From: Candidatus Yanofskybacteria bacterium RIFCSPHIGHO2_01_FULL_41_26
Lineage (GTDB): Bacteria > Patescibacteriota > Minisyncoccia > 2-02-FULL-40-12 > GWA2-44-9
Length of the DNA: 64,000 nucleotides
Assembly: GCA_001794055.1 (NCBI GenBank)
Contig: MGJB01000006.1
Span: 90,168 to 154,167, forward strand
Direction of reading: 5' to 3'
Shown here: positions 8,801 through 53,706 of the stretch, piece after piece
Position numbering within the stretch: position 1 is the stretch's first letter
Layout: the number at the start of each line of letters is the position of its first letter
Translations under genes and position numbers: made by a program
The notes under the pieces: generated by a model
Databases searched by the model: none
What the model saw: only the letters and a program-made list of their open reading frames with translations
What the model was told of the DNA's origin: nothing

Positions 8801-9964
8801 TCAATTTATTAACACTCTAATAGTTTCTTCAAACATTTTTTCCGAACTGAAATGCTCTGCCGTTTTTTTTCCTTCTTTCTTGAATTCTTCTCGTAATTCC
8901 AGGTCTTGCCAAAGAGATCTAATGGCCTCAATGAGATTAAACTCATCCTGATATTTAACCATAAAGCCGTTTTCTCCCTGTCTGACAATTTCTTTGTTTC
9001 CTCCCACAGCTGTCGTAATAACAGGCACACCGGCTGTCATAGCTTCCAGTATTTGATGCGAAAAACCTTCATAACCGCTATTGAGAACAAACGTGTCCGC
9101 CGCCGCCAGATAAGTTGCCAGCTCTTCCTGCGATTTTCTACCGACCAGATAAACCTTTCTTTCCAAACCAAGATTTTTGACCATTGATTCCAATATTTTT
9201 TTGTCAGACCCATCACCAACTATAACCAAACGGAAAAGTTGGCTTATATCCGAAAGGCGGGGCATGATCTTAATCAACATGCGAAACCCTTTCCAAGGCA
9301 CCAAACGCCCTGCGGATAATAAAATATCTCCATAAATGCCTACTTTTTTCTTAGCTTCTTCTTGACCGATGTCCGCGCTCTTAAAAGCAACCCCATTGTA
9401 GATGGTTGTAATTTTATCACCCGAAACGCCCCAGCCCCGGACAATTCCGGCCAGATACTTAGAAGGAACAATAATCTCATCGGCACTTTTACAAGCTCGA
9501 ACCTGAACTTTATGCAAAAAGCCTATCCAGCCGGTTTTTTTTGCTTTTTGAAAATCATCTATAAGCAGGTCTGTTTTATTTTTTTCCACTGCCACTTGCC
9601 AGGCATAATCACCGGCTATTCTAAGATAAAACTTCTTTTTAAAAAATCTTGCTCCAATCAAAGATGGAATTGCTCCGCTTAAAGTGCTCAACGAATATAC
9701 GATGTCGCTGTTTTTGCAGGTAAAGAAAACTTTCAAACCAAATGAGGCATGTTTAAAAAACCAAAAATTTTTCTTCCAAACACGTTTCACTTTAAACTGA
9801 TAATTTTTATCTTGCTCATGTTTTCTGACTGATGAGTATGTAATAACTTTAACTTTATAATCTTTTGACAATCTTTGAGCCAAAATTCTGACATACGAAG
9901 CCGGTCCGCCTATATCAGGAGGAAAGATACCTGTCACAATCAAGATGTTTTTTACTTTTTTCAT
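8801..9964 (-). CDS. glycosyltransferase family 1 (GT4)
   Basis: YEGFSHQILEAMTAGVPVITTAVGGNKEIVRQGENGFMV motif. Confidence 0.85.
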   Translation of the reverse strand: MKKVKNILIVTGIFPPDIGGPASYVRILAQRLSKDYKVKVITYSSVRKHEQDKNYQFKVKRVWKKNFWFFKHASFGLKVFFTCKNSDIVYSLSTLSGAIPSLIGARFFKKKFYLRIAGDYAWQVAVEKNKTDLLIDDFQKAKKTGWIGFLHKVQVRACKSADEIIVPSKYLAGIVRGWGVSGDKITTIYNGVAFKSADIGQEEAKKKVGIYGDILLSAGRLVPWKGFRMLIKIMPRLSDISQLFRLVIVGDGSDKKILESMVKNLGLERKVYLVGRKSQEELATYLAAADTFVLNSGYEGFSHQILEAMTAGVPVITTAVGGNKEIVRQGENGFMVKYQDEFNLIEAIRSLWQDLELREEFKKEGKKTAEHFSSEKMFEETIRVLIN

Positions 9965-10728
9965 TTGATAAACAAATTAAATCTAATTATATGCCAGATT
10001 GCCGCCAATCCATCTTTCCAATTTATCTTTTTACCGTCTTGATAAGTCCTGCCGCTATACGAAATTGGCACTTCAATAACTTTAAAATGTAACTTTCCGA
10101 TCCAAGCAGTTAATTCGGGATCAATACCAAATCTTTTGGATTTAAGATGGGGGTAGATTTGGTTTATTGAGTCCTTGGAAAAAACTTTATAGCAAGTGTA
10201 CATATCGGTTAGTTTAACTCCGCTTAAAATATTGGACATCCAGTTTAATGCCTGGCTGAACAGATAGCCACTTTTGTAAATAATTTTGTTTTTCTGTTCT
10301 GGTTTCATAAAACGCGAGCCATAGACAACATCGGCCTTGTTTTCTATTATGGGTGTTATCAGATTAGGGTATTCTTGCGGATTGTACTCAAGATCGGCAT
10401 CTTGAATTAAAATAATATCCCCCGCTGCCTCCTCGAACCCCCTTTTTGTAGCCGCACCTTTACCCATATTCTTATCTAAAAAAACGACATTATACTCCAC
10501 CTGTGGATAACCGACTTGCGAAGTCGGTATGTGGATAAGTTGATTTAGTATCTCTCTAGAGCCATCGGTTGATCCGTCATCAACTAAAATAATTTCTTTC
10601 TTGAGAGGCAAACTAACTGCCTCAACAGCATTGATTAATTTTCGCAAAGTTCTTTCTTCATTATAAACCGGGATAATGATGCTCAATTTTTTACAATCAA
10701 ATTCGTTCATAAATTTTAGCAAATTCAT
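9961..10728 (-). CDS. glycosyltransferase family 2 (dolichyl-phosphate hexose transferase-like)
   Basis: LSIIIPVYNEE...VDDGSTDGS...IQDADLEYNP GT-A DXD signature. Contains a degenerate in-frame REP copy at 10500-10540 encoding HIPTSQVGYPQV. Confidence 0.8.
   Translation of the reverse strand: MNLLKFMNEFDCKKLSIIIPVYNEERTLRKLINAVEAVSLPLKKEIILVDDGSTDGSREILNQLIHIPTSQVGYPQVEYNVVFLDKNMGKGAATKRGFEEAAGDIILIQDADLEYNPQEYPNLITPIIENKADVVYGSRFMKPEQKNKIIYKSGYLFSQALNWMSNILSGVKLTDMYTCYKVFSKDSINQIYPHLKSKRFGIDPELTAWIGKLHFKVIEVPISYSGRTYQDGKKINWKDGLAAIWHIIRFNLFIK
10500..10540. repeat. degenerate REP palindrome copy inside the GT2 CDS
   Basis: cctgtggataaccgacttgcgaagtcggtatgtggataag. The left arm and the stem ccgactt/aagtcgg are identical to the 39-bp REP at 26530, 37799 and 38548. 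The right arm is decayed. Confidence 0.6.
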
Positions 10729-21257: not shown

Positions 21258-23072
21258 TTATAAATTGCTTTCGGCTATCTTTATCATCTCCCCTATCTCA
21301 GGAGCTTTGTTTCCGAATGTCTGTGCGTTTTTCAAATAAATTAATGCCTGTTTATATTCTTTTTTAACAAAATATGCGGTACCCACCACCGCGCTTATAT
21401 CAGGATTGTCTAAACTTGATCCAAAATATTTACTCATCATTTCCAATGCTTTGTCCGGTTTATTCAGGGCAATTTGAACATAAGAATACTTTATTATATA
21501 TTCTGCCGTAGCATAAAAATTTATAACTTTAAGAAAATTATCACCCGCCTCCTGAAGCCGTCCTTGTTTTAAATATAACCTTGCCAGGTTTATAGAAGAA
21601 TTTGTTGCATCTGGATTCAATTCTAAAGACTTTTTAAATTTTTCTTCGGCTAAAACATAATTTTTCTCATGATCAGCGACAACTCCCAACAAGTTCTGAA
21701 GATGAGAATTATTTTCGTATATGTTTCTAGCAATTTGAAGCTGTTCTTTAGCTAAATCCCACTCACCAGCTCTTATGTGTACGCCGGCCAATGCTGTTCT
21801 GGTAATTAGGCTATTGGGAGATTCTTTAACTGTTGCATTAAACAATGTCTGACTGTCACGCCAGTCCTTATTTCTTACGATGGTTCTAACACCATAAAAA
21901 ATTAAAACAACAGTCAAAAATCCGTATACCACTTTAGCATCCAATTTTTTATATTCAATAACTTTCTTCAAGATCCAAGCAATAATAATCGTAAAACCAA
22001 AAGATGGAAAATACATTAATCTTTCCCCCATTATTGTTCCCACCGGTTTAATCAAATTAGAAATAATAAGGTAGGGGAACAGGAATAATACTGCACCAAA
22101 AGAGATCTCTTTGTTTACTTTTTTATAAAAAACAATAAGAACAACCAACAAGATGAGGATCAGGATTCCGACCGCAGATTCAAGAGAAACAAAGGGATTG
22201 CTTACTGTTTGTATGGTATTAAAAGAATAATCCGCAGAAAGATGGATCGGCCATACCAATCTTTCGACATACATAAACAAAACCTTAAACGCCGTGAAAA
22301 TTCTTTCTAAAAAAGATGAAAAAATCAAATGATTTTCTACAATAGTTGTCGTAGCAGCTCCAAAGAAATAACTGCCCAAAGCTTTGTATCTTAATATCGC
22401 ATAAAGTCCGAACGGTAAAAAGAAAAAAAGCATATTTCCGATTGATTCCTTTATTTTTTTATGTAAAACAACAAAGTCAATATATAAAATTACCGGCAAC
22501 ACCATTAAGGCCGACTCCTTGCTTAATAGAGCCAATAAAAACGATATAGAACTTAATATCTTATTTTTATTAACAAAAAAATAAATACTGATGATACTGA
22601 ACAAGAACGATAAAAGCTCTGCTCTTCCAACAATAGAAGTTACCGCTTCAGTATGAATAGGATGGGTCAAAAACAACAAAAAAGTTGCGTAGGACAGGAA
22701 CTTATTTTTAAATAAAAAGTAAATCAGCCAAAAAACCAAAAAAGAATTTAGGACATGAATAATAATATTGACGACATGAAAACCAGCCGCTTGTCCCGAG
22801 CTTGTGGAAGAAGAAAGCGAACTATTTATATAATGATTGATGGCATAAGAAGCCATGGCCAAAGGGCGATAAAGTCCTGTTTTGGGCATATTTTGATGAT
22901 AAGGAGAGATAAAGAGATTAAAAAAATTACTTGGGTCTGTTAGATCGCCCCGATTTTGAACTACTGTTACGTCGTCAAACACAAACTCACCTGAAATACC
23001 GTTTCCGAAAACCAAAAAAGACAGAATAATTGCCAAAATAAAAATAATAACAAATTCCCGATTGAAAATCAT
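21258..23072 (-). CDS. TMTC/DUF1736-like polytopic membrane protein with C-terminal TPR repeats (putative GT-C glycosyltransferase)
   Basis: N-terminal roughly 400 aa multi-TM with a first-loop FDD motif (GEFVFDDVTVVQN). C-terminal TPRs (NLLGVVADHEKNYVLAEEKFKKSLELNPD...). Confidence 0.6.
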   Translation of the reverse strand: MIFNREFVIIFILAIILSFLVFGNGISGEFVFDDVTVVQNRGDLTDPSNFFNLFISPYHQNMPKTGLYRPLAMASYAINHYINSSLSSSTSSGQAAGFHVVNIIIHVLNSFLVFWLIYFLFKNKFLSYATFLLFLTHPIHTEAVTSIVGRAELLSFLFSIISIYFFVNKNKILSSISFLLALLSKESALMVLPVILYIDFVVLHKKIKESIGNMLFFFLPFGLYAILRYKALGSYFFGAATTTIVENHLIFSSFLERIFTAFKVLFMYVERLVWPIHLSADYSFNTIQTVSNPFVSLESAVGILILILLVVLIVFYKKVNKEISFGAVLFLFPYLIISNLIKPVGTIMGERLMYFPSFGFTIIIAWILKKVIEYKKLDAKVVYGFLTVVLIFYGVRTIVRNKDWRDSQTLFNATVKESPNSLITRTALAGVHIRAGEWDLAKEQLQIARNIYENNSHLQNLLGVVADHEKNYVLAEEKFKKSLELNPDATNSSINLARLYLKQGRLQEAGDNFLKVINFYATAEYIIKYSYVQIALNKPDKALEMMSKYFGSSLDNPDISAVVGTAYFVKKEYKQALIYLKNAQTFGNKAPEIGEMIKIAESNL

Positions 23073-24928
23073 TTTTGCAATTCTTTGATAAAACTTTTCA
23101 TCAATTCGCCAGTTTGAGGATCTAACTCGGCGTATTTTAACCCTGTTTGTAAATCTTTTAGGGCTTGGTCTTTATTATTAAGCGCGACATAAACCAGCGC
23201 CGAATTGTAATAAACACGAAGATTATTCGGGAGAAGAAGCTTAAGCTTTTCGATATTTTCAACGGCTTTAGTCAGGTTGCCTTGTTGAGCATATATAACC
23301 GACAAATTTTGATAAGGATAATAGAAGTTGGGATTAATTTCTATCGCTTTTTCGTATAACTTGATTGCTCCGTAAATATCCCCCCTAGATTGCAAAATAG
23401 TGCCTAAATTAAAATGAGGTTCGGCAAATATGTCACCTAGAGAGGCAGCGATTTTATAATATTTCTCGGCATTTTCCATGTCTTTTTTATTGTAATAGAT
23501 ATTTCCCACATTATTATTTATCCTGGAACTGTCCGGTTCATATTTTAGGATGTCAAGATAAAAAGCAAGCTGATTACCCCACAGAAGATTGCGCTGAATT
23601 GATTGATAAGCAAAGAAAGAAAAGTAGGCAACTAATACGGTGATCATCAAGATTCGACAGAGTTTCCAAGGGGTGGAAATCCCACTCCGAGAATTTTGGA
23701 TTTTCAAAAAGGTCGAATCTTTAAAATCCAAAAGTTTAACCAAATAAAAAGAAAAAACGAGCCAAAAACCAACCATTGGCAGATAGAGCCAATGCTCATA
23801 CATTAATGCATTTACCGGTGTAATACCGGAAACAGGTCCAAGAGAAATAAAAAACAACGCCACGCCAAAAAACCAGACCTGAAAAATTGCGGGTCGTAGG
23901 TTGTGAGTTGTGAGTTGACGCTTATACAGATGCCTTAGCCAAATCAATAATCCGATAAGGCCCAAAAAAATCGGCCAAACCGGCCACTGAAACAACGAGG
24001 TGTAGACAACAGCGCCTCTCTCCATGTGAAGACCCGTCGGAACTATCAAAAGTTTTAGATATTCCCACAGTATGGGCAGAAAGGTAAATACTCTGACATA
24101 TAGATTTTCAGAATAAATATTAGGTTCAGCGTAAAAATTAAGGGTATTCTGAAAATTTAAAACCGTAAGCCTCAAAATTCCATAAACGACAACTACTGCA
24201 AAATAAGGCCAAATTTTAATTAGGCCATGTTTTACGGATTTCAAAAATCGTTCTTTTGAGATAAAAGAAATATAAAAAGCGACAGCCAAAAACGGGAAAA
24301 TTATCGCAGTTTCCCGACTTAAAAGAGCCAAGACCAGAAAAACTAAGGACAGCACTCTATTCAAGGTTAAACCTTGTATCCTTCCAAGGTTTAACCTTGG
24401 AGTAGTTTCTGATCGATAGAACAAAATCAATGTCGCCAACATGAATGTCGTCACCAAAGCGTCTCCCCTGCCCGATATGTAGGTTATTGCCTCCGTTTGC
24501 AAAGGATGAATCAAAAATATCAAAGAAGTTAAAAATGCCACTGCCAAAGTTCGACCCTTTGAAATCCCAAGGTCAAACTTTTTTAACAATAAGAAAATTA
24601 AAATACCATTGGCCACATGAATCAAATTGCTCAGTAAATGATAGCTTAGCGGTTTAATACCTGAAATTATATAATTTAAAGCAAACGTAAAAAATAAAAA
24701 AGGTCTGTAATAATTACTTTTCAAGCCCACTCCCGCAAGAGTATTATGGGTAAGCCAGAATTTAATATTATCCCAGCTTATTGTGTGGACAAAATTATTT
24801 CTTATTATCCAATCCTCATCATCCCAAAACAACTGGTTATTCAAATTAAATGAGTAAATAAAGCCGCTTATGACGATAAGGACTACGATCGGCAGCCAAA
24901 CTTCTTTTTTTAACAGTAGTTTATTCAT
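23069..24928 (-). CDS. TMTC/DUF1736-like polytopic membrane protein with C-terminal TPR repeats (paralog)
   Basis: First-loop WDDED motif. C-terminal TPRs (NVGNIYYNKKDMENAEKYYKIAASLGD...GAIKLYEKAIEINPN...). Confidence 0.6.
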   Translation of the reverse strand: MNKLLLKKEVWLPIVVLIVISGFIYSFNLNNQLFWDDEDWIIRNNFVHTISWDNIKFWLTHNTLAGVGLKSNYYRPFLFFTFALNYIISGIKPLSYHLLSNLIHVANGILIFLLLKKFDLGISKGRTLAVAFLTSLIFLIHPLQTEAITYISGRGDALVTTFMLATLILFYRSETTPRLNLGRIQGLTLNRVLSLVFLVLALLSRETAIIFPFLAVAFYISFISKERFLKSVKHGLIKIWPYFAVVVVYGILRLTVLNFQNTLNFYAEPNIYSENLYVRVFTFLPILWEYLKLLIVPTGLHMERGAVVYTSLFQWPVWPIFLGLIGLLIWLRHLYKRQLTTHNLRPAIFQVWFFGVALFFISLGPVSGITPVNALMYEHWLYLPMVGFWLVFSFYLVKLLDFKDSTFLKIQNSRSGISTPWKLCRILMITVLVAYFSFFAYQSIQRNLLWGNQLAFYLDILKYEPDSSRINNNVGNIYYNKKDMENAEKYYKIAASLGDIFAEPHFNLGTILQSRGDIYGAIKLYEKAIEINPNFYYPYQNLSVIYAQQGNLTKAVENIEKLKLLLPNNLRVYYNSALVYVALNNKDQALKDLQTGLKYAELDPQTGELMKSFIKELQK

Positions 24929-26948
24929 TGAAATATTTACTTAAAAAATCTTTTGCCTGCGTATTGTTTTTATCCAATCTCACAGCTTCTTTGAAAAAGG
25001 CCTGGGCGTTTTCAAGCCGGCTTAAGTTCATATAAACCACTCCCAAAATAAAATAATATTGACTCTCTTTCAAGCCTAAATCAATCGCCATTTTTATATT
25101 TTCCGCCCCCAATTGCTGATTTTGTTTATCCGAGTAAGAAACGTGAATAAATCCTTTGTGGAGATAAGGATATGGATTTTTGGGATCAATTTTTATAACT
25201 TCATCGGCAAAATAAGCCGATGCTTCCAGCCAATCAATTTTAAACAAAACGCGTGACAAAATAAGATTTAGGTCGGCCTTGTTTTTATTTGAGTTTTTTA
25301 TATTAGCAGATATTTTATCTATGGCATTTTTATCAATAATGGAAAATTTAGAAATAACCCCGGTGTTTTTACTATTATTCTTAAGCAGAATGATTGCATC
25401 TTCGTTAATATAAACAATTTTCCAGTCCAGGTTTTTGGCAATATTTCTTAAAAAATTATCGGCCCAAGGCGTAACATCATTATATCCAAAAAATATGAAG
25501 TTGATGCCATATTTCCCTGAAAATTCAAGCCACTTTTTCTTATCCTCTTGCATCGGCTTATATGTCTCGCTAAAAAACTCAACCGAATATGCTTCTGGCC
25601 TGTTGTCAACAAAAACTTTCTCTTGGGGGTACAGCTGCCATATCAAATATCCTCCAATATCAAAATTATTAAACATTGGTCCTTTGATATTGTTTTGTTT
25701 GACAAAATCAACAGCTCTTTCCAGTCCATTCGGAACAGAAAAACCGGATACCCTGGAAACTCCCATATACCTGTAATATGTATTATTTGCCACAAAAAAA
25801 ATAAGCAAAATAATCAACGCGGAAAACAGAACTTTAAAAAAACTGCTCAATCTTTTAACTTGAGGTTTAACTTCAAGTTTATAGAGATTAAACCTCTGTA
25901 GAACATCTGCCAGTAGGATCGCCAATATCGGGAAAGACGCAAGCGCGTACAACGGCAAATTGCGTAACATCCTGAATCCAGCATACACAAAAAATGCCAT
26001 AGTAAGTATTTCAAAGACCCTTTGTTTCGATTTTTTTGCGGTCAGTATCAAAGAAATAACTAAAAGTACCACCGAAAGTTTAAAAATAAAAACCGGCAAA
26101 AGAAAACCTCTAAGGTTGGCCAGAAAAGAAAGGGTTTGATTCTCAACTATGTTGTATCCGTACTCGTTCAGCACTTTAAAGGGCAAAAGTGCACCTTGAA
26201 TTCCGTTCGGATTTATAAGTGTTGCCAAGCTGGTTAGTGATCCAATCAACACTATTCTGATAAGGTCCGACCTTTTAGAAACAAGCCGGTCTATGAGAAA
26301 TGCTAACAACAGAAATGGTCCGATAAAAAAATAAATGTGCAAATTTACCCAAAACAATTCCAAAATCGGCAAAAACCAGAGAAAAAAATAATTTTTTTCA
26401 TATTTTGCCTTTAATATAGCAAACAAGAAAAATGACAAAATGACGAAACTGAATATCTCCGGTCGGACTTCCGTTCGCTGGATAAATATGAACATTGAGA
26501 GAAGGAAAGATACTAAAAGAGACCAGAAACCTGTGGATAACCGACTTCGCAAGTCGGTTATCCACAGGTGTTTTATAGTAAAAAATAGTAACAAAAACGC
26601 AATCAGTACCAAGGCGGTTTTAACAAGAGTTAATCCGATAAATCCAAAGTAACTGAAAATACCAAAAAATATTACCTCGCTTAACCAGTGATGGTTGATA
26701 AAAGGGAAATCCGGCTCGGTAAAAGAAAATAAATTTGTCTTTGGAACCTCTTTTGTCTGCCAAATAATCTCGCCAACCTTAAGATGCCGACCGATATCTT
26801 GGCCGATAGTGTCAAAGTTGTGAATCAAAAAACTCCCCAAAAGTACAAAAATGAGAACAAATAAATAGTTTTTCTTAAGGAAGTACAACAATGGTTTTAC
26901 CATCGCATTGTTTTTCAAAAAGTTTGACATAGCCCCCTTCAGTAACAA
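24921..26948 (-). CDS. polytopic membrane protein with C-terminal TPR repeats (third paralog-like member of the array)
   Basis: Multi-TM N-terminal region. C-terminal TPR-like repeats (YFILGVVYMNLSRLENAQAFFKEAVRLDKNN). Contains an in-frame intact 39-bp REP (26530-26568) encoding HLWITDLRSRLST. Confidence 0.55.
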   Translation of the reverse strand: MLLKGAMSNFLKNNAMVKPLLYFLKKNYLFVLIFVLLGSFLIHNFDTIGQDIGRHLKVGEIIWQTKEVPKTNLFSFTEPDFPFINHHWLSEVIFFGIFSYFGFIGLTLVKTALVLIAFLLLFFTIKHLWITDLRSRLSTGFWSLLVSFLLSMFIFIQRTEVRPEIFSFVILSFFLFAILKAKYEKNYFFLWFLPILELFWVNLHIYFFIGPFLLLAFLIDRLVSKRSDLIRIVLIGSLTSLATLINPNGIQGALLPFKVLNEYGYNIVENQTLSFLANLRGFLLPVFIFKLSVVLLVISLILTAKKSKQRVFEILTMAFFVYAGFRMLRNLPLYALASFPILAILLADVLQRFNLYKLEVKPQVKRLSSFFKVLFSALIILLIFFVANNTYYRYMGVSRVSGFSVPNGLERAVDFVKQNNIKGPMFNNFDIGGYLIWQLYPQEKVFVDNRPEAYSVEFFSETYKPMQEDKKKWLEFSGKYGINFIFFGYNDVTPWADNFLRNIAKNLDWKIVYINEDAIILLKNNSKNTGVISKFSIIDKNAIDKISANIKNSNKNKADLNLILSRVLFKIDWLEASAYFADEVIKIDPKNPYPYLHKGFIHVSYSDKQNQQLGAENIKMAIDLGLKESQYYFILGVVYMNLSRLENAQAFFKEAVRLDKNNTQAKDFLSKYFNE
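26530..26568. repeat. REP palindrome (39 bp, perfect) inserted in-frame in a CDS
   Basis: cctgtggataaccgacttcgcaagtcggttatccacagg. Same sequence as the RAYT-flanking copies. Confidence 0.85.
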
Positions 26949-33160: not shown

Positions 33161-36100
33161 TTATTTGATACTCATTACCTTGCTGCCATACCCCCAAATA
33201 ACCCTATTTTCACTTAAAACCGGGGATATAACCGAGCTTACTCCCGTTGAAATGTGCCATCTCTCATTGCCGTCCTTATCAACGCCATAAACATCTCCCG
33301 ACTGGGTAGAGAAATAGGCACCGCCGTCTTTGTCTACTGCTATCTGTTGGTTTATTTTACCTTCGGCCTGGAATGACCAACTAACCGTAAGGTCAGATTT
33401 ATTAAGCGAGAAAAGTTTTGAACCGGAAGCAGGATTTGACCAGCTGTAATCTAAACCGACAAGAAGATTGGTCGGGGTAATTGAAACCATTGTTGCCCCC
33501 GAACCATTGCTGGCCGGTTCAATAACAGTCGTATTCAAAACAGAACCGTCAGGTGGAATGACGAACATTCTAAACCCGAAAGAAGAACCCCCATCATAAC
33601 CGATAGCCGAATAAGTCTTGCCTGTTGATTTGTCATGTGACGGATTCGACTGCATACTGCCATTGGCGCCGGTATAAGCCAAATCCCAAATTTTTGAGCC
33701 ATCAGACAAATATTTTGTAAAAAATTGATTACCGCTTATCCGTCTTGCCACAACACTATCGCCATTTTCAAGAACAATCGGAACAAAACCACTCAGGCCA
33801 GGATTACTGGCTTGGGTCTTTGTTGAGCCGCCTGTATTTAACACGACAAGCTTGTCGTTGCCGCTTGAATAGGTAAAATATGGTTCACCTTTTTCGGATA
33901 CAGTAAAAGCTTTGATCGTACTTGCATCATCATAATCCCATTTCTTGGTTCCGTCGGAATTAAGAGCCGTAAAAGCCAAAACTCCGCCAGCTCCGATACG
34001 GCCAAAATACACCACACCATCAGATAAGATTGCCGGGGTGCCAATACTGACATTGGTGGCGTATTCCCATTTTTGTACGCCATTTTTATCAAGTTTTATT
34101 AATTTTCCGGAACCGTTGGCCGAGCCGAAATAAATACCTCCGTCAGCTGAAACAACCGGCTGACCTACAGTATTTCCGGCTCCGGCATCAAATTCCCAGC
34201 TTATTGTTGCCCCAACACCCGGCCCCGCCAAACTAGCCGCAAAAGACGTGTGATATTGGTCTTTACCGAGCATAGACCAAGCCCCGTCGTCTATCGCGGA
34301 TGGGAAACTCACCTCGGCTATATTAGAAATATCTGAACACTTATCCACAGTTTCCCCATTACCGACTTCGCAAGTCGGTATGTTGATAACTTTTGTTTTC
34401 AGGGCAAAATAAAGTGTCTGGCCATAGTCATGGGCAATATCGGGAGTTACGATTTGCGATTCTCCCTCATTTCCGACGCTAGGCAAACTAGAGCTGGCTA
34501 CTTTTATTGCTAAATCCCAACTGGCGGAAGAAGGGAAACCGGTGAGCGAATATCGCAAATCGTAACTCAAACTGGCCGGACTGTAACCGCCTGGGTCGGG
34601 CGCCGACCATGAAATGGTAAGCGGTGAGTTGATGGTGGCCAATAAGTTGGTAACGGCTGATGGAGCTTGAGTTATAACATCAGCGCTATTCTGGGATTTA
34701 GGAGTTGATGTGGCGGTAATCCATCCGCCATCCATCCGTTGGGCAGTTTTTTTAGTGTCATTGTTGCCAATAATTTCGTCATTGCCGTTTATTTTCCACG
34801 CATTTGAACCATCAACTTGGTCAATTACAGTTCCGGAAATGTCTTTCAAAACTAAATTTTCTCCCGTATTGCCTAAAGCGCCGGTGTATATTTGGTCGGC
34901 ATCAATATCAGGCAACGTTTGATCATCGGTCCTTTCTAAGACATAAAAGCCAAACGGACTTATATTGCCAATCAGTGTTATGTCTGGCGTACCGTCTTTT
35001 GACTTAAGATTCCAATTGTTAAGATTTATGGTTTTGTTGGTGATGTTACGAAGTTCTATCCACTCATCGTTCGATAATGACGCTGAGGTTCCCATCCAAG
35101 CAATTTCGTTTAGGACAATGTCACCAAGATTGGCAGTGTCACCATCGGGTTCTGGTGACGGGATGGGTGACGGTGACGGCGATTGTGACGGAGTGGGAGT
35201 AGGAGTTGCTTGCGGTGAGCTTGTCGAATCCGGTGTCGAAGATGACCCGCCTCCTCCGCCGCCATATGAAACAATAACCTGAACCGCTGTGCTGTTTTTG
35301 GCTTTAGGCGTTCCGTTTATCAACCCGCCGGTTGCATCTTTATTTGTTGATGTCCCGGAAAAACTTTTCCAATTTGAGGCGCTATTACCGGCTTTCATCG
35401 AATCTATTCTCTCCATTGAATTCTTTGATGTTGAGTCACCGAAATACCATGCTTCACCCGTGCCACCAACCACATCTACCACAATGCCAATGCTATCAAA
35501 CAGTCTGATCATTTCGCCTGCATTGTTAAGGCCTCCTTGGCCAAAACCTGCAGCCAAATCAGCTGTTATATCGCTTACGGTATTATCATCTGTCCTCTCA
35601 ATTAAAAAATAGGAATTCGCTTGAATAATTGTCCCTTCCGAGAAAATAATATCAGGGGAATCATCGCTTGAAACCAACCGCCAACTGGATATGTCTATTG
35701 GGTTGTTTTCGGTGTTATAAAGCTCAATCCATTCATCTGTTGCAGAGGCATCCGTCCCCGCCCAGGCAATCTCGTTTATGACCACTGTGCCGAATTTCTT
35801 TGCTGTGGATAATTTTGGGATAGGAGATGGGGTTGGGGTAGTTGACAGCTTCGGTGTCGGTGCTGGTGTTTTTGATGGTGACAGAATAGGTGACACAAGA
35901 GGTGACACTATTGTGACACTGGTGACAGGTGTCTTTGTCACCAGTGGTGACGGTGACACTACTTGATTTGTCACCTTCGGTGTTGGTGTCACCATGTTGT
36001 CACCATCATTTGAGTTATCCACAATGTCATTATCGGTGCTAATTCCTATTAACCCCAGCAATCTTGCAAACCAGTTTTTCTCTAGCGGTTTATTGGCATA

Positions 36101-37075
36101 TTCTTGTTTTGCTTTCTCCGCTTCTGTTAAAAACAAGTTCAACGCCCCAGAGCCGTTAAGAACTACCTCTCTTGATAATCGGTCCCAATAGCCATCGAGG
36201 ATATCCTCACTCGATATTGTTAGTTCACCAGTTTTAATGATATTTTTAACTAATACATAATTACCACTCTTGTCTTTTTTATACCCTACTAAATCCTCCT
36301 CTCCTTTTTGATTTTTCTTATAAATCCAAAAATCTATTGTTGGGTTTGCATAGTTACTATCATTAATCGTATCTTTACTAAAAAAATTCCCATTTGAATA
36401 CTTGGCTATTTTATCAAAATATTCGCCCAGATTAGCAAGAATCACGGGCTTCAATCCTTCTTTTTTAAATTTAGAAGCAACATTAAAGTTATCAGGACTC
36501 CATTTCGCCATTTCATGTTCATACGGACTGCCGAATGTTCCTACCGGCGGATGGGGATCATTTCGAGTGTGGTCGGGAACTCCCATATCTTCCAATAAGT
36601 GCAGAAGGTGACCAAATGCAAGCATGGCTCTTTGTCTGTCTCCTTGAGCATAATCATTCATTGCTCGTTCATAAGAAAAGTCATCTGGACTTTTAATTAC
36701 CCCCGCTGATTGAGCAATACTATTGTTGGACATGGCAAGATTTGATTGAGCGCCAGAACTCATCGCCCACTGTTTGGATGTAGGGAATCCGGCCATACCA
36801 ATATTGTGAACTGGGTCATAGAAATGATTCATCGGCCTCATACCTTGGTCTTCATCCATGGAACCCTGAATTATCCAAGTTTTATCTTGATTATTTAACT
36901 TTTGAGAAAAGTTAAGATTATAAAAATCAACAATCTCGTCGGTTAACGCCGGGTGAGTATGCGGCTGGTCGTAAGCCGATGCTTTGGTAATGAAAAAGGC
37001 GCCAATAAGCGCCCCTCCTACTATTAAGTTTTTGATTCGTTTATGCCTCATAACTGGCTGATTTTCCATATCCAT
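33161..37075 (-). CDS. multidomain secreted protein: Zn-dependent phospholipase-C-like domain + 2 lamin-tail (LTD) domains + PQQ-like beta-propeller
   Basis: Signal/TM. MNHFYDP and HLLHLLEDMGVPDH motifs (Zn_dep_PLPC-like). Two INEIAW.GT.AS..DEWIEL.N LTD motifs separated by Pro/Thr/Ser linkers. C-terminal GG.YFG...G.L..LD.NG..KW repeats (PQQ/BamB-like). Degenerate REP inside at 34351-34400. Confidence 0.65.
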   Translation of the reverse strand: MDMENQPVMRHKRIKNLIVGGALIGAFFITKASAYDQPHTHPALTDEIVDFYNLNFSQKLNNQDKTWIIQGSMDEDQGMRPMNHFYDPVHNIGMAGFPTSKQWAMSSGAQSNLAMSNNSIAQSAGVIKSPDDFSYERAMNDYAQGDRQRAMLAFGHLLHLLEDMGVPDHTRNDPHPPVGTFGSPYEHEMAKWSPDNFNVASKFKKEGLKPVILANLGEYFDKIAKYSNGNFFSKDTINDSNYANPTIDFWIYKKNQKGEEDLVGYKKDKSGNYVLVKNIIKTGELTISSEDILDGYWDRLSREVVLNGSGALNLFLTEAEKAKQEYANKPLEKNWFARLLGLIGISTDNDIVDNSNDGDNMVTPTPKVTNQVVSPSPLVTKTPVTSVTIVSPLVSPILSPSKTPAPTPKLSTTPTPSPIPKLSTAKKFGTVVINEIAWAGTDASATDEWIELYNTENNPIDISSWRLVSSDDSPDIIFSEGTIIQANSYFLIERTDDNTVSDITADLAAGFGQGGLNNAGEMIRLFDSIGIVVDVVGGTGEAWYFGDSTSKNSMERIDSMKAGNSASNWKSFSGTSTNKDATGGLINGTPKAKNSTAVQVIVSYGGGGGGSSSTPDSTSSPQATPTPTPSQSPSPSPIPSPEPDGDTANLGDIVLNEIAWMGTSASLSNDEWIELRNITNKTINLNNWNLKSKDGTPDITLIGNISPFGFYVLERTDDQTLPDIDADQIYTGALGNTGENLVLKDISGTVIDQVDGSNAWKINGNDEIIGNNDTKKTAQRMDGGWITATSTPKSQNSADVITQAPSAVTNLLATINSPLTISWSAPDPGGYSPASLSYDLRYSLTGFPSSASWDLAIKVASSSLPSVGNEGESQIVTPDIAHDYGQTLYFALKTKVINIPTCEVGNGETVDKCSDISNIAEVSFPSAIDDGAWSMLGKDQYHTSFAASLAGPGVGATISWEFDAGAGNTVGQPVVSADGGIYFGSANGSGKLIKLDKNGVQKWEYATNVSIGTPAILSDGVVYFGRIGAGGVLAFTALNSDGTKKWDYDDASTIKAFTVSEKGEPYFTYSSGNDKLVVLNTGGSTKTQASNPGLSGFVPIVLENGDSVVARRISGNQFFTKYLSDGSKIWDLAYTGANGSMQSNPSHDKSTGKTYSAIGYDGGSSFGFRMFVIPPDGSVLNTTVIEPASNGSGATMVSITPTNLLVGLDYSWSNPASGSKLFSLNKSDLTVSWSFQAEGKINQQIAVDKDGGAYFSTQSGDVYGVDKDGNERWHISTGVSSVISPVLSENRVIWGYGSKVMSIK
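34351..34400. repeat. degenerate REP palindrome copy inside a CDS
   Basis: ttatccacag...accgacttcgcaagtcggtatgttgataac. The stem and loop are identical to the REP family. Encodes INIPTCEVGNG in-frame. Confidence 0.55.
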
Positions 37076-37798: not shown

Positions 37799-37837
37799 CC
37801 TGTGGATAACCGACTTGCGAAGTCGGTTATCCACAGG
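37799..37837. repeat. REP palindrome (39 bp, perfect), left flank of RAYT
   Basis: cctgtggataaccgacttgcgaagtcggttatccacagg. The loop is inverted relative to the right-flank copy. Confidence 0.9.
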
Positions 37838-37861: not shown

Positions 37862-38536
37862 ATGGCAACTGAACAAAATTTTTACCACACGCTAAATAGG
37901 GGTGTCGAAAAACGTAATATATTCCTAGATAAGCAGGACCATTTTCGTTTTATTCACAATTTATATGAACTCAATAATGAAGATAGGGTTGATACCACCT
38001 TTCATTCTTTTAAAGAAGATCCGAATCTTACCGACTTCGCAAATCGGAAACAAAGAAAAATATTGGTAGACATTCTTGCGTTTTGTTTAATGCCAAATCA
38101 TTATCACCTGCTTCTTTCACCAAAAATAGAGGGTGGGGTTCCTAAGTTTATGAATAAGATAAACATTGGCTACGCAAAATATTTTAATAAAAAATATAAG
38201 AGAGTTGGAGCGTTGTTTCAAGGAAGATATAAAAAAATATTAATAGCAGATAATACTCACTTTCTCCACCTTCCTTTTTATATCCATTTCAATCCGCTTG
38301 ATTTAAAATATCCTGAATGGAGAGAAAATAGAATATTAAATGCTGAAAAAGCTTTAGGGTTTTTAAAATCCTATCGTTGGAGCAGCCATTTAGACTATTT
38401 GGGTGTTAAAAATTTTCCGTCGATTATAAATAATGGCTTACTTACAGAAATTTTTGACGGAAGTAAGGGTTACGAAAAACTGATTAATAATTACCTAAAA
38501 GATATTCAAATAGATCCAGAGGTTGCGTTAGAATAA
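37862..38536 (+). CDS. REP-associated tyrosine transposase (RAYT; IS200/IS605-like Y1 HUH transposase)
   Basis: HUH motif LMPNHYHLL. C-terminal ALFQGRYKKILIADNTHFLHLPFYIHFNP matches the RAYT W/FQxR(Y)...IRDE..L.....YIH.NP block with the catalytic Tyr. The ORF-track start (37802) lies inside the REP palindrome, so the start is placed at MATEQNF. Confidence 0.8.
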   Translation: MATEQNFYHTLNRGVEKRNIFLDKQDHFRFIHNLYELNNEDRVDTTFHSFKEDPNLTDFANRKQRKILVDILAFCLMPNHYHLLLSPKIEGGVPKFMNKINIGYAKYFNKKYKRVGALFQGRYKKILIADNTHFLHLPFYIHFNPLDLKYPEWRENRILNAEKALGFLKSYRWSSHLDYLGVKNFPSIINNGLLTEIFDGSKGYEKLINNYLKDIQIDPEVALE

Positions 38537-38547
38537 AGAATGGTAAC

Positions 38548-38586
38548 CCTGTGGATAACCGACTTCGCAAGTCGGTTATCCACAGG
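38548..38586. repeat. REP palindrome (39 bp, perfect), right flank of RAYT
   Basis: cctgtggataaccgacttcgcaagtcggttatccacagg. Confidence 0.9.
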
Positions 38587-53656: not shown

Positions 53657-53706
53657 AATACAATGGGGGTCTTTGTATAAATGTATACAAAGACCCCCAT
53701 TGTATT
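53657..53706 (-). terminator. 23-bp perfect hairpin (likely terminator of 53801..54181)
   Basis: aatacaatgggggtctttgtata-aatg-tatacaaagacccccattgtatt. A T-rich run follows on the minus strand. Also lies in the hppA upstream region. Confidence 0.45.

What the first reader, a model, noticed from the sequence alone, without database searches (positions are those of the whole stretch)
26530..26568. Intact REP palindrome inserted in-frame inside the TM+TPR protein gene
The 39-bp palindrome is a multiple of three. It sits in frame in the 675-aa membrane/TPR protein (24921-26948) and encodes HLWITDLRSRLST in a cytoplasmic or loop segment between TM helices. In-frame palindromic-element insertions into ORFs are known for Rickettsia palindromic elements. 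A REP family doing the same here would be notable and implies tolerance of 13-aa insertions.
Basis: seen in the sequence. Interest (0 to 1): 0.7.

Follow-up and report, generated by a model that had tools for sequence, protein, structure and literature searches.

The report
In-frame REP palindrome inside a gene
A 39-base mobile DNA palindrome, which has its own transposase gene 11 kb away, sits in frame inside a membrane glycosyltransferase gene of a groundwater Yanofskybacteria (CPR) genome and adds a short floppy loop to the protein. This is a real but already described kind of event, and it turns out to be common for this repeat family.

Summary
Window 26530-26568 is a perfect 18-19 bp stem with a 3-nt loop. 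It lies in frame in ORF 24921-26948(-) and encodes (H)LWITDLRSRLST(G).

It is a genuine REP. Two identical copies, in inverted orientation, flank a Y1/HUH transposase gene (RAYT-like, 37862-38536).

Most orthologues of the host protein lack the segment. The host is a GT-C-fold glycosyltransferase with a TPR tail. The few orthologues that share the segment carry the same REP at DNA level. AlphaFold2 models the insert as a low-confidence loop between two membrane helices.

The phenomenon is family-wide:
- Two further rearranged REP copies lie in frame in other window genes.
- Of 68 distinct REP contexts from related groundwater genomes, about half lie in frame inside long ORFs.
- Pfam-confirmed hosts include RecR, UvrC, TsaE, TGT, MnmA, AlaRS, MPG and SecA.
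- Intact copies use only the two stop-free frames.

The best explanation is a transposase-spread selfish palindrome that survives only where a 13-codon, stop-free insert lands in a permissive loop.

The kind of event is already known: Rickettsia palindromic elements, and intragenic REPs (Di Nocera 2013). I found no report for CPR bacteria. I rate it a new member of a known kind, of moderate interest.

The parts
26530..26568 (-). Intact 39-bp REP palindrome (19-bp stem if 26529/26569 are included). It is in frame in the host gene and encodes (H127)LWITDLRSRLST(G140).
   Evidence: It is 39/39 identical to the copies that flank the transposase gene.
24921..26948 (-). Host gene: a multi-pass membrane protein with a GT-C glycosyltransferase fold, a soluble domain and C-terminal TPR repeats. 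The annotated start is probably M16, at 26903.
   Evidence: P0001, 100% identical, Candidatus Yanofskybacteria. AlphaFold2 mean pLDDT 83.8. Foldseek hits to DPY19, STT3/PglB/AglB and ArnT. All family-invariant residues on both sides of the REP are retained.
37862..38536 (+). RAYT-like Y1 (HUH) tyrosine transposase gene, 224 aa. HUH motif H80-Y-H82; catalytic Tyr123.
   Evidence: Pfam Y1_Tnp 39.7 bits, above its cut-off of 23. The best and only NCBIfam hit is REP-associated tyrosine transposase, 42.7 bits, below its cut-off of 80. A profile of homologues aligns the HUH motif and the Tyr to ISDra2 TnpA 2xm3.
37799..37837 (-). REP copy 24 nt upstream of the RAYT start, in inverted orientation (loop GCG on the + strand).
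38548..38586 (+). REP copy 11 nt downstream of the RAYT stop (loop CGC).
   Evidence: The same arrangement is seen in L012 and L001.
10500..10539 (-). REP variant with one outer arm inverted (CCTGTGGATAACCGACTTGCGAAGTCGGT-ATGTGGATAAG). It is in frame in the GT2 glycosyltransferase ORF 9961-10728 and encodes LIHIPTSQVGYPQV. It is read in the frame where an intact REP would give TAA.
   Evidence: Orthologous GT2 genes in L032 and L039 carry an intact REP at the same place in another frame. The same variant form occurs in an intergenic region in L004.
34340..34390 (-). Rearranged REP (TTATCAACA-core hairpin-10 nt-TGTGGATAA), in frame in the 1304-aa ORF 33161-37075. It encodes VINIPTCEVGNGETVDKC.
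38030..38048 (+). REP-core-like hairpin (ACCGACTTCGCAAATCGGA) inside the RAYT coding sequence, encoding LTDFANRK.
   Evidence: The RAYT gene in L066 has the perfect core at the same position.

Best explanation
The 39-bp palindrome is a copy of a small REP family that belongs to a resident REP-associated tyrosine transposase (a REPtron) of Candidatus Yanofskybacteria.

Inferred, by analogy with characterised HUH/Y1 enzymes: the transposase recognises the hairpin on single-stranded DNA and cuts and pastes it without target-site duplication.

Shown: a copy has landed inside a GT-C-type membrane glycosyltransferase gene, in the short loop between two transmembrane helices. The loop is probably cytoplasmic.

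The gene stays intact for two reasons. The element is 39 nt, a multiple of three. Being a palindrome, it is also free of stop codons in two of three frames in either orientation. The element is therefore translated as about 13 residues of flexible loop (inferred, not measured).

The copy persists because it is nearly neutral there. Copies that hit the TAA frame or structured regions are presumably lost. In gene-dense CPR genomes this filter leaves two classes of survivors: copies immediately 3' of stop codons, and in-frame copies in permissive loops of proteins, including housekeeping ones.
For: - REP identity: 3 exact copies in the window, two of them flanking a Y1/HUH transposase gene in inverted orientation.
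- The same transposase neighbourhood recurs in six other loci, which argues for a resident, vertically kept RAYT (locus tags).
- Insertion status: absent from most orthologues; the sharers checked at DNA level (one locus per group) carry the REP.
- No target-site duplication at the flanks.
- Permissive site: AlphaFold2 gives pLDDT below 50 only for residues 131-138, between helices 88-130 and 139-156.
- The same loop carries at least four other unrelated inserts in other lineages, one of them a 72-nt nested palindrome.
- Family-wide pattern: 33-34 of 68 distinct REP contexts lie in open frames of at least 100-150 aa, against 71-77% for random or shifted positions. Two of these are only the RAYT 5' leader, leaving about 31.
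- Frames used by those copies: PVDNRL[A/R]KSVIHR 26, LWITD[F/L][A/R]SRLSTG 7 (this tally includes the two RAYT-leader copies). The TAA frame is excluded by the open-frame criterion itself, so its absence among them is not independent evidence. The independent support is the next two items.
- The two window copies that sit in the TAA frame have a rearranged arm that removes the stop.
- Non-ORF copies lie 0-11 nt after stop codons, and some donate the TAA stop.
- Hosts confirmed by Pfam as continuous domains across the insert: RecR, UvrC, TsaE, TGT, MnmA, AlaRS, MPG, class-V aminotransferase, beta-CASP RNase, SecA.
Against: - No expression data. Translation of the insert is inferred only from intact ORFs and frame usage.
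- Transposase activity on this hairpin is not shown.
- The RAYT scores below the NCBIfam equivalog cut-off.
- The insertion is not a clean 39-nt gain. Compared with REP-less orthologues the gene is only 30 nt longer. In P0033 the REP replaces 12 codons.
- REPs at the same nucleotide junction (|TTTCTGG) occur in orthologues only 60-65% identical. This needs either recurrent targeting or long maintenance, and a simple neutral-junk model does not predict either.
Confidence: 0.72

Rival explanations
1. The intragenic REPs are maintained functional DNA or RNA elements rather than tolerated junk. Candidate roles are binding sites for the RAYT, binding sites for DnaA (each arm carries the DnaA-box consensus TTATCCACA), or mRNA hairpins that pace translation or membrane insertion. 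Under this view their position in genes is incidental to that role.
For: - Copies at orthologous intragenic sites keep essentially identical stems while 120-nt flanks are only 66-81% identical.
- In two unbiased protein searches, REP-coded segments were either intact or absent, never half-decayed.
- The loop is flipped between two genomes whose flanks are 96-97% identical (L022 vs L027), which indicates ongoing activity.
- Compensatory stem changes occur (TGTTGATAA/TTATCAACA in 4 contexts).
- TTATCCACA occurs 14 times in the window against 0.49 expected.
- Rearranged variants keep the exact 9-mer in a new orientation.
- The RAYT gene itself contains the core hairpin.
Against: - The metagenome search pattern fixed 22 stem positions, so part of the stem conservation is by construction.
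- The compensated variant breaks the DnaA-box consensus.
- About 7-10 copies per genome (7 in MAG H41-bin108_1) is few for a titration role.
- Insertion sites are unrelated proteins with no common theme beyond permissive loops.
- The sense-strand hairpin is not terminator-like.
- No binding or expression data.
Confidence: 0.15
2. The host gene is inactivated or decaying, and the open frame across the REP is a recent accident.
For: - In MAG H41-bin108_1 the TGT gene has a deletion of about 110 codons next to the REP, plus a frameshift (L002). REP insertion can therefore accompany gene decay.
- CPR genomes probably experience weak selection.
Against: - The 675-aa ORF is uninterrupted.
- It keeps every family-invariant residue on both sides of the insert.
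- It folds with mean pLDDT 83.8.
- Orthologues with the REP are intact in several lineages.
- Essential genes (SecA, AlaRS) carry the same insert as continuous Pfam matches.
Confidence: 0.05
3. The element is an assembly artefact, or an ancestral native sequence rather than an insertion.
For: - Repeats can mis-join short-read assemblies.
- A related peptide (ITDIASRLSTG) occurs in a 61%-identical orthologue.
Against: - The identical protein is on 3 contigs.
- The REP-bearing orthologue P0033 was assembled from two samples.
- A 39-bp repeat is shorter than a read, and both flanks are continuous orthologous coding sequence.
- The related peptide is itself a REP at DNA level, with compensatory stem changes.
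- Most orthologues lack the segment.
Confidence: 0.03

Closest known systems
Intragenic GTAG/CGTC REPs ('REP-decorated proteins'), Di Nocera, De Gregorio & Rocco 2013, BMC Genomics 14:522 (PMC3733652)
   Same: - Short REP hairpins lie entirely within ORFs of known proteins and are read in frame.
- Hosts are enriched for DNA repair (uvrABC, recBCD) and tRNA-related genes. Here: UvrC, RecR, MPG, AlaRS, TGT, MnmA, TsaE.
- The elements are associated with RAYT genes flanked by REPs (REPtrons).
- A GTGG variant of the GTAG tag is reported in the species with the most intragenic copies.
   Different: - Those stems are 5-13 bp, with an unpaired GTAG tag at one end. Here the stem is a perfect 18-19 bp palindrome with GTGG inside it on both strands.
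- Those families are mostly intergenic. Here about half of the contexts are intragenic.
- The host phylum here is CPR/Patescibacteria, which I did not find reported.
Rickettsia palindromic elements (RPE; Ogata et al. 2000, as summarised in PMC10969869 and PMC3733652)
   Same: - Palindromic repeats inserted in frame into many unrelated, functional genes of a reduced-genome bacterium.
- The inserts are thought to sit in surface loops compatible with protein fold and function.
   Different: - The RPEs summarised in that review are about 150 bp, with no known dedicated transposase, and are Rickettsia-specific.
- This element is 39 bp, has a linked RAYT, and is in an unrelated phylum.
REPIN-RAYT systems (Bertels and Rainey; RAREFAN preprint 10.1101/2022.05.22.493013; 10.1101/2021.07.10.451892)
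   Same: - A single resident Y1 transposase flanked by its repeats.
- A conserved genomic neighbourhood, which suggests vertical inheritance.
- Repeat populations with sub-families.
   Different: - REPINs are pairs of inverted REPs in extragenic space and number tens to hundreds per genome.
- Here the units are single symmetric palindromes, about 7-10 per genome, and often intragenic.
IS200/IS605 family (ISDra2 TnpA, PDB 2xm3)
   Same: Y1 HUH fold with aligned HUH and Tyr motifs. By analogy, hairpin-guided single-strand transposition without target duplication.
   Different: There are no distinct left and right subterminal hairpins. The whole gene-plus-ends unit is not repeated; only the 39-bp hairpin is dispersed.

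Membership tests
REP / RAYT system (REPtron) | Short palindromic sequence repeated in the genome | tested here: met
   3 exact and 2 rearranged copies in 64 kb. 7 loci in a related MAG. 68 metagenome loci.
REP / RAYT system (REPtron) | Y1 transposase gene with HUH motif and catalytic Tyr, flanked by REPs in inverted orientation | tested here: met
   REPs at 37799-37837 and 38548-38586 flank ORF 37862-38536. H80, H82 and Y123 are invariant in 20 homologues and align to ISDra2 TnpA.
REP / RAYT system (REPtron) | Protein reaches the curated RAYT model threshold (NCBIfam NF047646) | tested here: not met
   42.7 bits against a cut-off of 80. It is nevertheless the only NCBIfam hit. The Pfam Y1_Tnp threshold is met.
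REP / RAYT system (REPtron) | Conserved GTAG tetranucleotide at one end, outside the stem | tested here: not met
   There is no GTAG. GTGG lies inside the stem, symmetrically on both strands. GTGG is a published variant.
REP / RAYT system (REPtron) | Extragenic location | tested here: not met
   About half of 68 contexts are inside long ORFs. The rest lie 0-11 nt after stop codons, as for classical REPs.
REP / RAYT system (REPtron) | RAYT is single-copy and kept in a conserved neighbourhood (vertical inheritance) | tested here: inconclusive
   The same 3' neighbour gene is found in six other loci, and locus tags are close to the host-gene orthologue in two other genomes. Copy number per complete genome was not determined.
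Rickettsia palindromic elements | In-frame insertion into functional ORFs | tested here: met
Rickettsia palindromic elements | Element of about 100-150 bp belonging to the RPE sequence families of Rickettsia | tested here: not met
   The element is 39 bp, in Candidatus Yanofskybacteria.
IS200/IS605 insertion sequence | The complete unit (tnpA plus distinct left and right ends) is present in several copies | tested here: not met
   One transposase gene in the window. Its ends are identical copies of the dispersed hairpin.
MITE | Terminal inverted repeats with target-site duplication | tested here: not met
   No direct repeat flanks the copies. There is only a tendency for A at -1 and T at +1, which extends the palindrome.

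The most novel reading that the evidence does not exclude
In these CPR genomes the intragenic REPs are actively maintained DNA-level elements, not decaying junk.

Observations that fit this reading:
- Copies at orthologous codon positions stay intact while the surrounding gene diverges by 20-30%.
- Loops flip between near-identical genomes.
- The arms carry the exact DnaA-box consensus, which survives arm rearrangements.
- The transposase gene itself harbours the core hairpin.

Together these would mean a RAYT-dependent maintenance or gene-conversion cycle, or a host function such as DnaA or single-strand hairpin signalling, operating from inside essential genes.
Probability: 0.15. Interest if true: 0.8.

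Novelty: new member of a known kind. Interest (0 to 1): 0.55.

Why it matters
It shows that a transposase-linked REP family can live largely inside protein-coding sequence when intergenic space is scarce. That adds CPR/Patescibacteria to Rickettsia and a few other lineages where palindromic repeats remodel protein loops.

In practice it explains many lineage-specific 13-residue inserts (PVDNRLAKSVIHR, LWITDFASRLSTG) in CPR housekeeping proteins. These inserts can break domain models: the RecR zinc-finger Pfam hit (PF02132) appears only among orthologues without the REP insert.

It marks permissive loops in membrane and soluble proteins.

It also offers a compact RAYT-REP pair, with a long perfect hairpin, for biochemical study.

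Tried and rejected
- Rfam scan of the whole window found only three tRNAs and nothing at the REP.
- Intrinsic-terminator reading: the hairpin is terminator-like only on the antisense strand, not in the sense of the host gene.
- Target-site search: flank logos show only A at -1 and T at +1, no defined target motif and no duplication.
- A clean 39-nt empty site could not be shown for the host gene. The nearest REP-less orthologue with DNA (P0003, 77% identical) differs by +30 nt. The closest protein (P0002, 92% identical) has no DNA record and carries a different insert.
- The idea that the GT2 copy was repaired in place to remove TAA was weakened, because the same arm-inverted form exists in an intergenic region in L004.
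- A single-sequence PDB search with the RAYT gave only marginal hits. The profile search was needed.
- The species-representative genome collection did not return the window's own genome. Only one related MAG was found, so no whole-genome census was possible.
- Literature searches for REP, RAYT or palindromic inserts in CPR found nothing relevant.

Full report
**Observation**

Window 26530-26568 reads CCTGTGGATAACCGACTT-CGC-AAGTCGGTTATCCACAGG. This is a perfect 18-bp stem (19 bp with the flanking A/T) and a 3-nt loop. The exact 39-mer occurs three times in the window (26530, 37799, 38548), against none in 100 shuffles.

It lies inside ORF 24921-26948 on the minus strand. It runs from the third base of codon 127 to the second base of codon 140 and reads H-LWITDLRSRLST-G with no stop. 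The hairpin is very stable: -36.5 kcal/mol as RNA in a 101-nt context (z = -8.4) and -22.1 kcal/mol as DNA (z = -11.1). Rfam has nothing at this position.

**It is a genuine REP with its own transposase**

The two other copies lie in inverted orientation 24 nt upstream and 11 nt downstream of ORF 37862-38536.
- The ORF matches Pfam Y1_Tnp above threshold.
- Its only NCBIfam hit is 'REP-associated tyrosine transposase', though below the curated cut-off (42.7 vs 80 bits).
- A profile of 20 homologues aligns its invariant H80-x-H82 and Tyr123 to the HUH and catalytic Tyr of ISDra2 TnpA.
- The protein family is abundant in Candidatus Yanofskybacteria and other Patescibacteria.
- The gene next to it recurs beside RAYT homologues in six other loci, and locus tags place it near the host-gene orthologue in two other genomes. 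This suggests a resident, vertically kept RAYT, as described for REPIN-RAYT systems (abstracts).

**The host gene and the insertion**

The ORF is 100% identical to an annotated 660-aa protein of Candidatus Yanofskybacteria (P0001). AlphaFold2 with 40 orthologues gives mean pLDDT 83.8. Foldseek finds GT-C glycosyltransferases (DPY19, STT3/PglB/AglB, ArnT) plus TPR proteins.

In the model the REP-coded residues 131-138 are one of only four segments with pLDDT below 50. They form a coil between helices 88-130 and 139-156. By GT-C topology and the basic residues of the ancestral loop (AKKxA), the loop is probably cytoplasmic. That assignment is an inference.

In the 40-sequence alignment most orthologues read FF+7 aa+FW at this point. 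The window reads FF+17 aa+FW. The gain is therefore net 10 residues, although removing exactly the 39 nt would still leave an open frame.

Only 7 of the top 120 homologues share the peptide. They form three groups. A representative of each (L008 for P0033, L016, L077) carries the REP at DNA level. In P0033 it is a variant with compensatory stem changes (TGTTGATAA/TTATCAACA) and the opposite loop orientation.

Other lineages carry unrelated inserts in the same loop. One is a 72-nt nested palindrome in P0004.

An assembly artefact is unlikely. The identical protein is on three contigs, and P0033 was assembled from two samples.

**The phenomenon is family-wide**

Looser searches found two more REP-derived elements in the window, both in frame in ORFs.
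- 10500-10539 lies in a GT2 glycosyltransferase gene.
- 34340-34390 lies in a 1304-aa ORF.
- Both are read in the frame where an intact REP would give TGT GGA TAA. Both have a rearranged outer arm that removes that stop.
- The same arm-inverted form also exists in an intergenic region (L004), so it is a sub-family rather than an in-place repair.

A scan of species-representative genomes found 7 loci, all in one related MAG. A metagenome scan found 68 loci, mostly from Hainich groundwater samples (contig names). After removing duplicates there are 68 distinct contexts.
- 33-34 contexts lie within open frames of at least 100-150 aa with flanking codons on both sides. Two of these are only the RAYT 5' leader. 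The figure for random or shifted positions is 71-77%.
- Frame use among those copies is PVDNRL[A/R]KSVIHR 26 and LWITD[F/L][A/R]SRLSTG 7 (the tally includes the two leader copies). The stop frame cannot appear in this set, because the open-frame criterion excludes it.
- The remaining copies lie 0-11 nt after stop codons, and some provide the TAA stop.
- Pfam confirms the hosts as continuous RecR, UvrC, TsaE, TGT, MnmA, AlaRS, MPG, class-V aminotransferase, beta-CASP RNase and SecA.
- In RecR the insert sits in the zinc-finger knuckle. Of 120 RecR orthologues, 78 have CxxC-x8-CxxC and 40 carry many different inserts there. This REP occurs only in the five closest.

**Mechanism**

The best-supported reading is a RAYT-mobilised selfish hairpin filtered by selection. 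Because the element is 39 nt long and stop-free in two of three frames in either orientation, insertions into permissive loops do not break genes. In gene-dense CPR genomes this leaves 3'-of-stop copies and in-frame loop copies. Steps shown here are repeat identity, linkage to the transposase, lineage-specific presence, frame usage and a disordered-loop location. Steps inferred are transposase activity on the hairpin, translation of the insert and near-neutrality.

**Observations the simple model does not fully explain**

- REPs at orthologous sites have essentially identical stems while 120-nt flanks are 66-81% identical.
- The loop is flipped between two genomes whose flanks are 96-97% identical.
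- The 3' junction in the host gene is the same nucleotide in lineages only 60-65% identical.
- Each arm contains the DnaA-box consensus TTATCCACA, which occurs 14 times in the window against 0.49 expected.
- The RAYT gene contains the REP core hairpin.

Part of the stem conservation is by construction, because the search pattern fixed 22 positions. However, two protein-based searches also found the insert either intact or absent, never half-decayed. These points keep open a maintained or functional reading at roughly 15%.

**Comparison with what is known**

In-frame palindromic inserts are classic for Rickettsia RPEs. Di Nocera et al. 2013 reported GTAG and CGTC REPs inside ORFs of several species. 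Many of those ORFs are DNA-repair and tRNA-related genes, and that paper also reports a GTGG tag variant. The present family differs in four ways:
- a long, perfect, symmetric stem with GTGG inside it;
- about half of its contexts intragenic;
- low copy number;
- a CPR host.

I found no paper describing this in CPR.

**Verdict**

The finding is real and correctly interpreted. It is a new member of a known kind, of moderate interest.

Noticed in passing
window 10500-10539 (ORF 9961-10728, minus strand): A fourth REP-derived element with one outer arm inverted lies in frame in a GT2 glycosyltransferase gene (peptide LIHIPTSQVGYPQV). Orthologous GT2 genes in L032 and L039 carry an intact REP at the same place in another frame.
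   Followed up: yes
window 34340-34390 (ORF 33161-37075, minus strand): A fifth REP-derived element with swapped arms and a 10-nt spacer (TTATCAACA-core-AATGGGGAAAC-TGTGGATAA) lies in frame in a 1304-aa secreted-looking protein. A similar swapped form is in L050.
   Followed up: partly
window 38030-38048, and the RAYT gene in L066: The RAYT coding sequence itself contains the REP core hairpin (ACCGACTTCGCAA[A/G]TCGG, peptide LTDFA[N/S]RK). More distant homologues keep D[FI]A[SN]R. This may be an autoregulatory site or an old REP remnant.
   Followed up: partly
window, 14 sites including 33118, 35804, 36015, 42859, 42888: The REP arms contain the exact DnaA-box consensus TTATCCACA. The 9-mer occurs 14 times in the window against 0.49 expected; 8 are in REP-derived elements and 6 are elsewhere. 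Cumulative GC skew shows no origin in the window.
   Followed up: partly
window 26262-26274: A second, unrelated 13-nt palindrome AAGGTCGGACCTT in the same host gene encodes KRSDL. Orthologues P0012 and P0026 have the full element RSDLESSKRSDL at that site, so the window copy looks like a half-relic of another repeat family.
   Followed up: partly
window 24362-24399 (ORF 23069-24928, minus strand): Twin short palindromes CAAGGTTAAACCTTG / CAAGGTTTAACCTTG lie in frame in the neighbouring paralogous TM+TPR gene (peptide PRLNLGRIQGLTLN).
   Followed up: no
L011 about 400-480 (P0004 orthologue): A 72-nt nested palindrome (AAGGTCTGAC...GGAGTGGGAttCCCACTCC...GTCAGACCTT) occupies the same loop as the window REP. 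P0006, P0021, P0026 and P0030 carry yet other inserts there, so the loop is an insertion hot spot.
   Followed up: partly
L002 3016-3054 (MAG H41-bin108_1, TGT gene): The REP is joined directly to a deletion of about 110 codons, with a frameshift, in the tRNA-guanine transglycosylase gene. This is a probable REP-adjacent deletion and pseudogene.
   Followed up: partly
L022:1949-1987 vs L027:1117-1155: Two genomes with 96-97% identical flanks have the REP loop in opposite orientation (CGC vs GCG) at the same intragenic site. Either the element turned over recently or the loop inverted within the palindrome.
   Followed up: partly
RecR orthologues P0241-P0360: The zinc-finger knuckle (CxxC-x8-CxxC in 78 of 120) carries many different inserts of 5-25 extra residues in 40 orthologues. 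Several have peptide patterns typical of translated palindromes. PF02132 is recorded only among the insert-free orthologues.
   Followed up: partly
L015 vs L036:7766-8947: A beta-CASP RNase with the REP, compared with its empty-site orthologue, shows a net gain of 10 residues. This is the same 13-minus-3 pattern as in the window gene.
   Followed up: no
window 53657-53706: An unrelated perfect 23-bp inverted repeat with a 4-nt spacer (AATACAATGGGGGTCTTTGTATA / TATACAAAGACCCCCATTGTATT).
   Followed up: no
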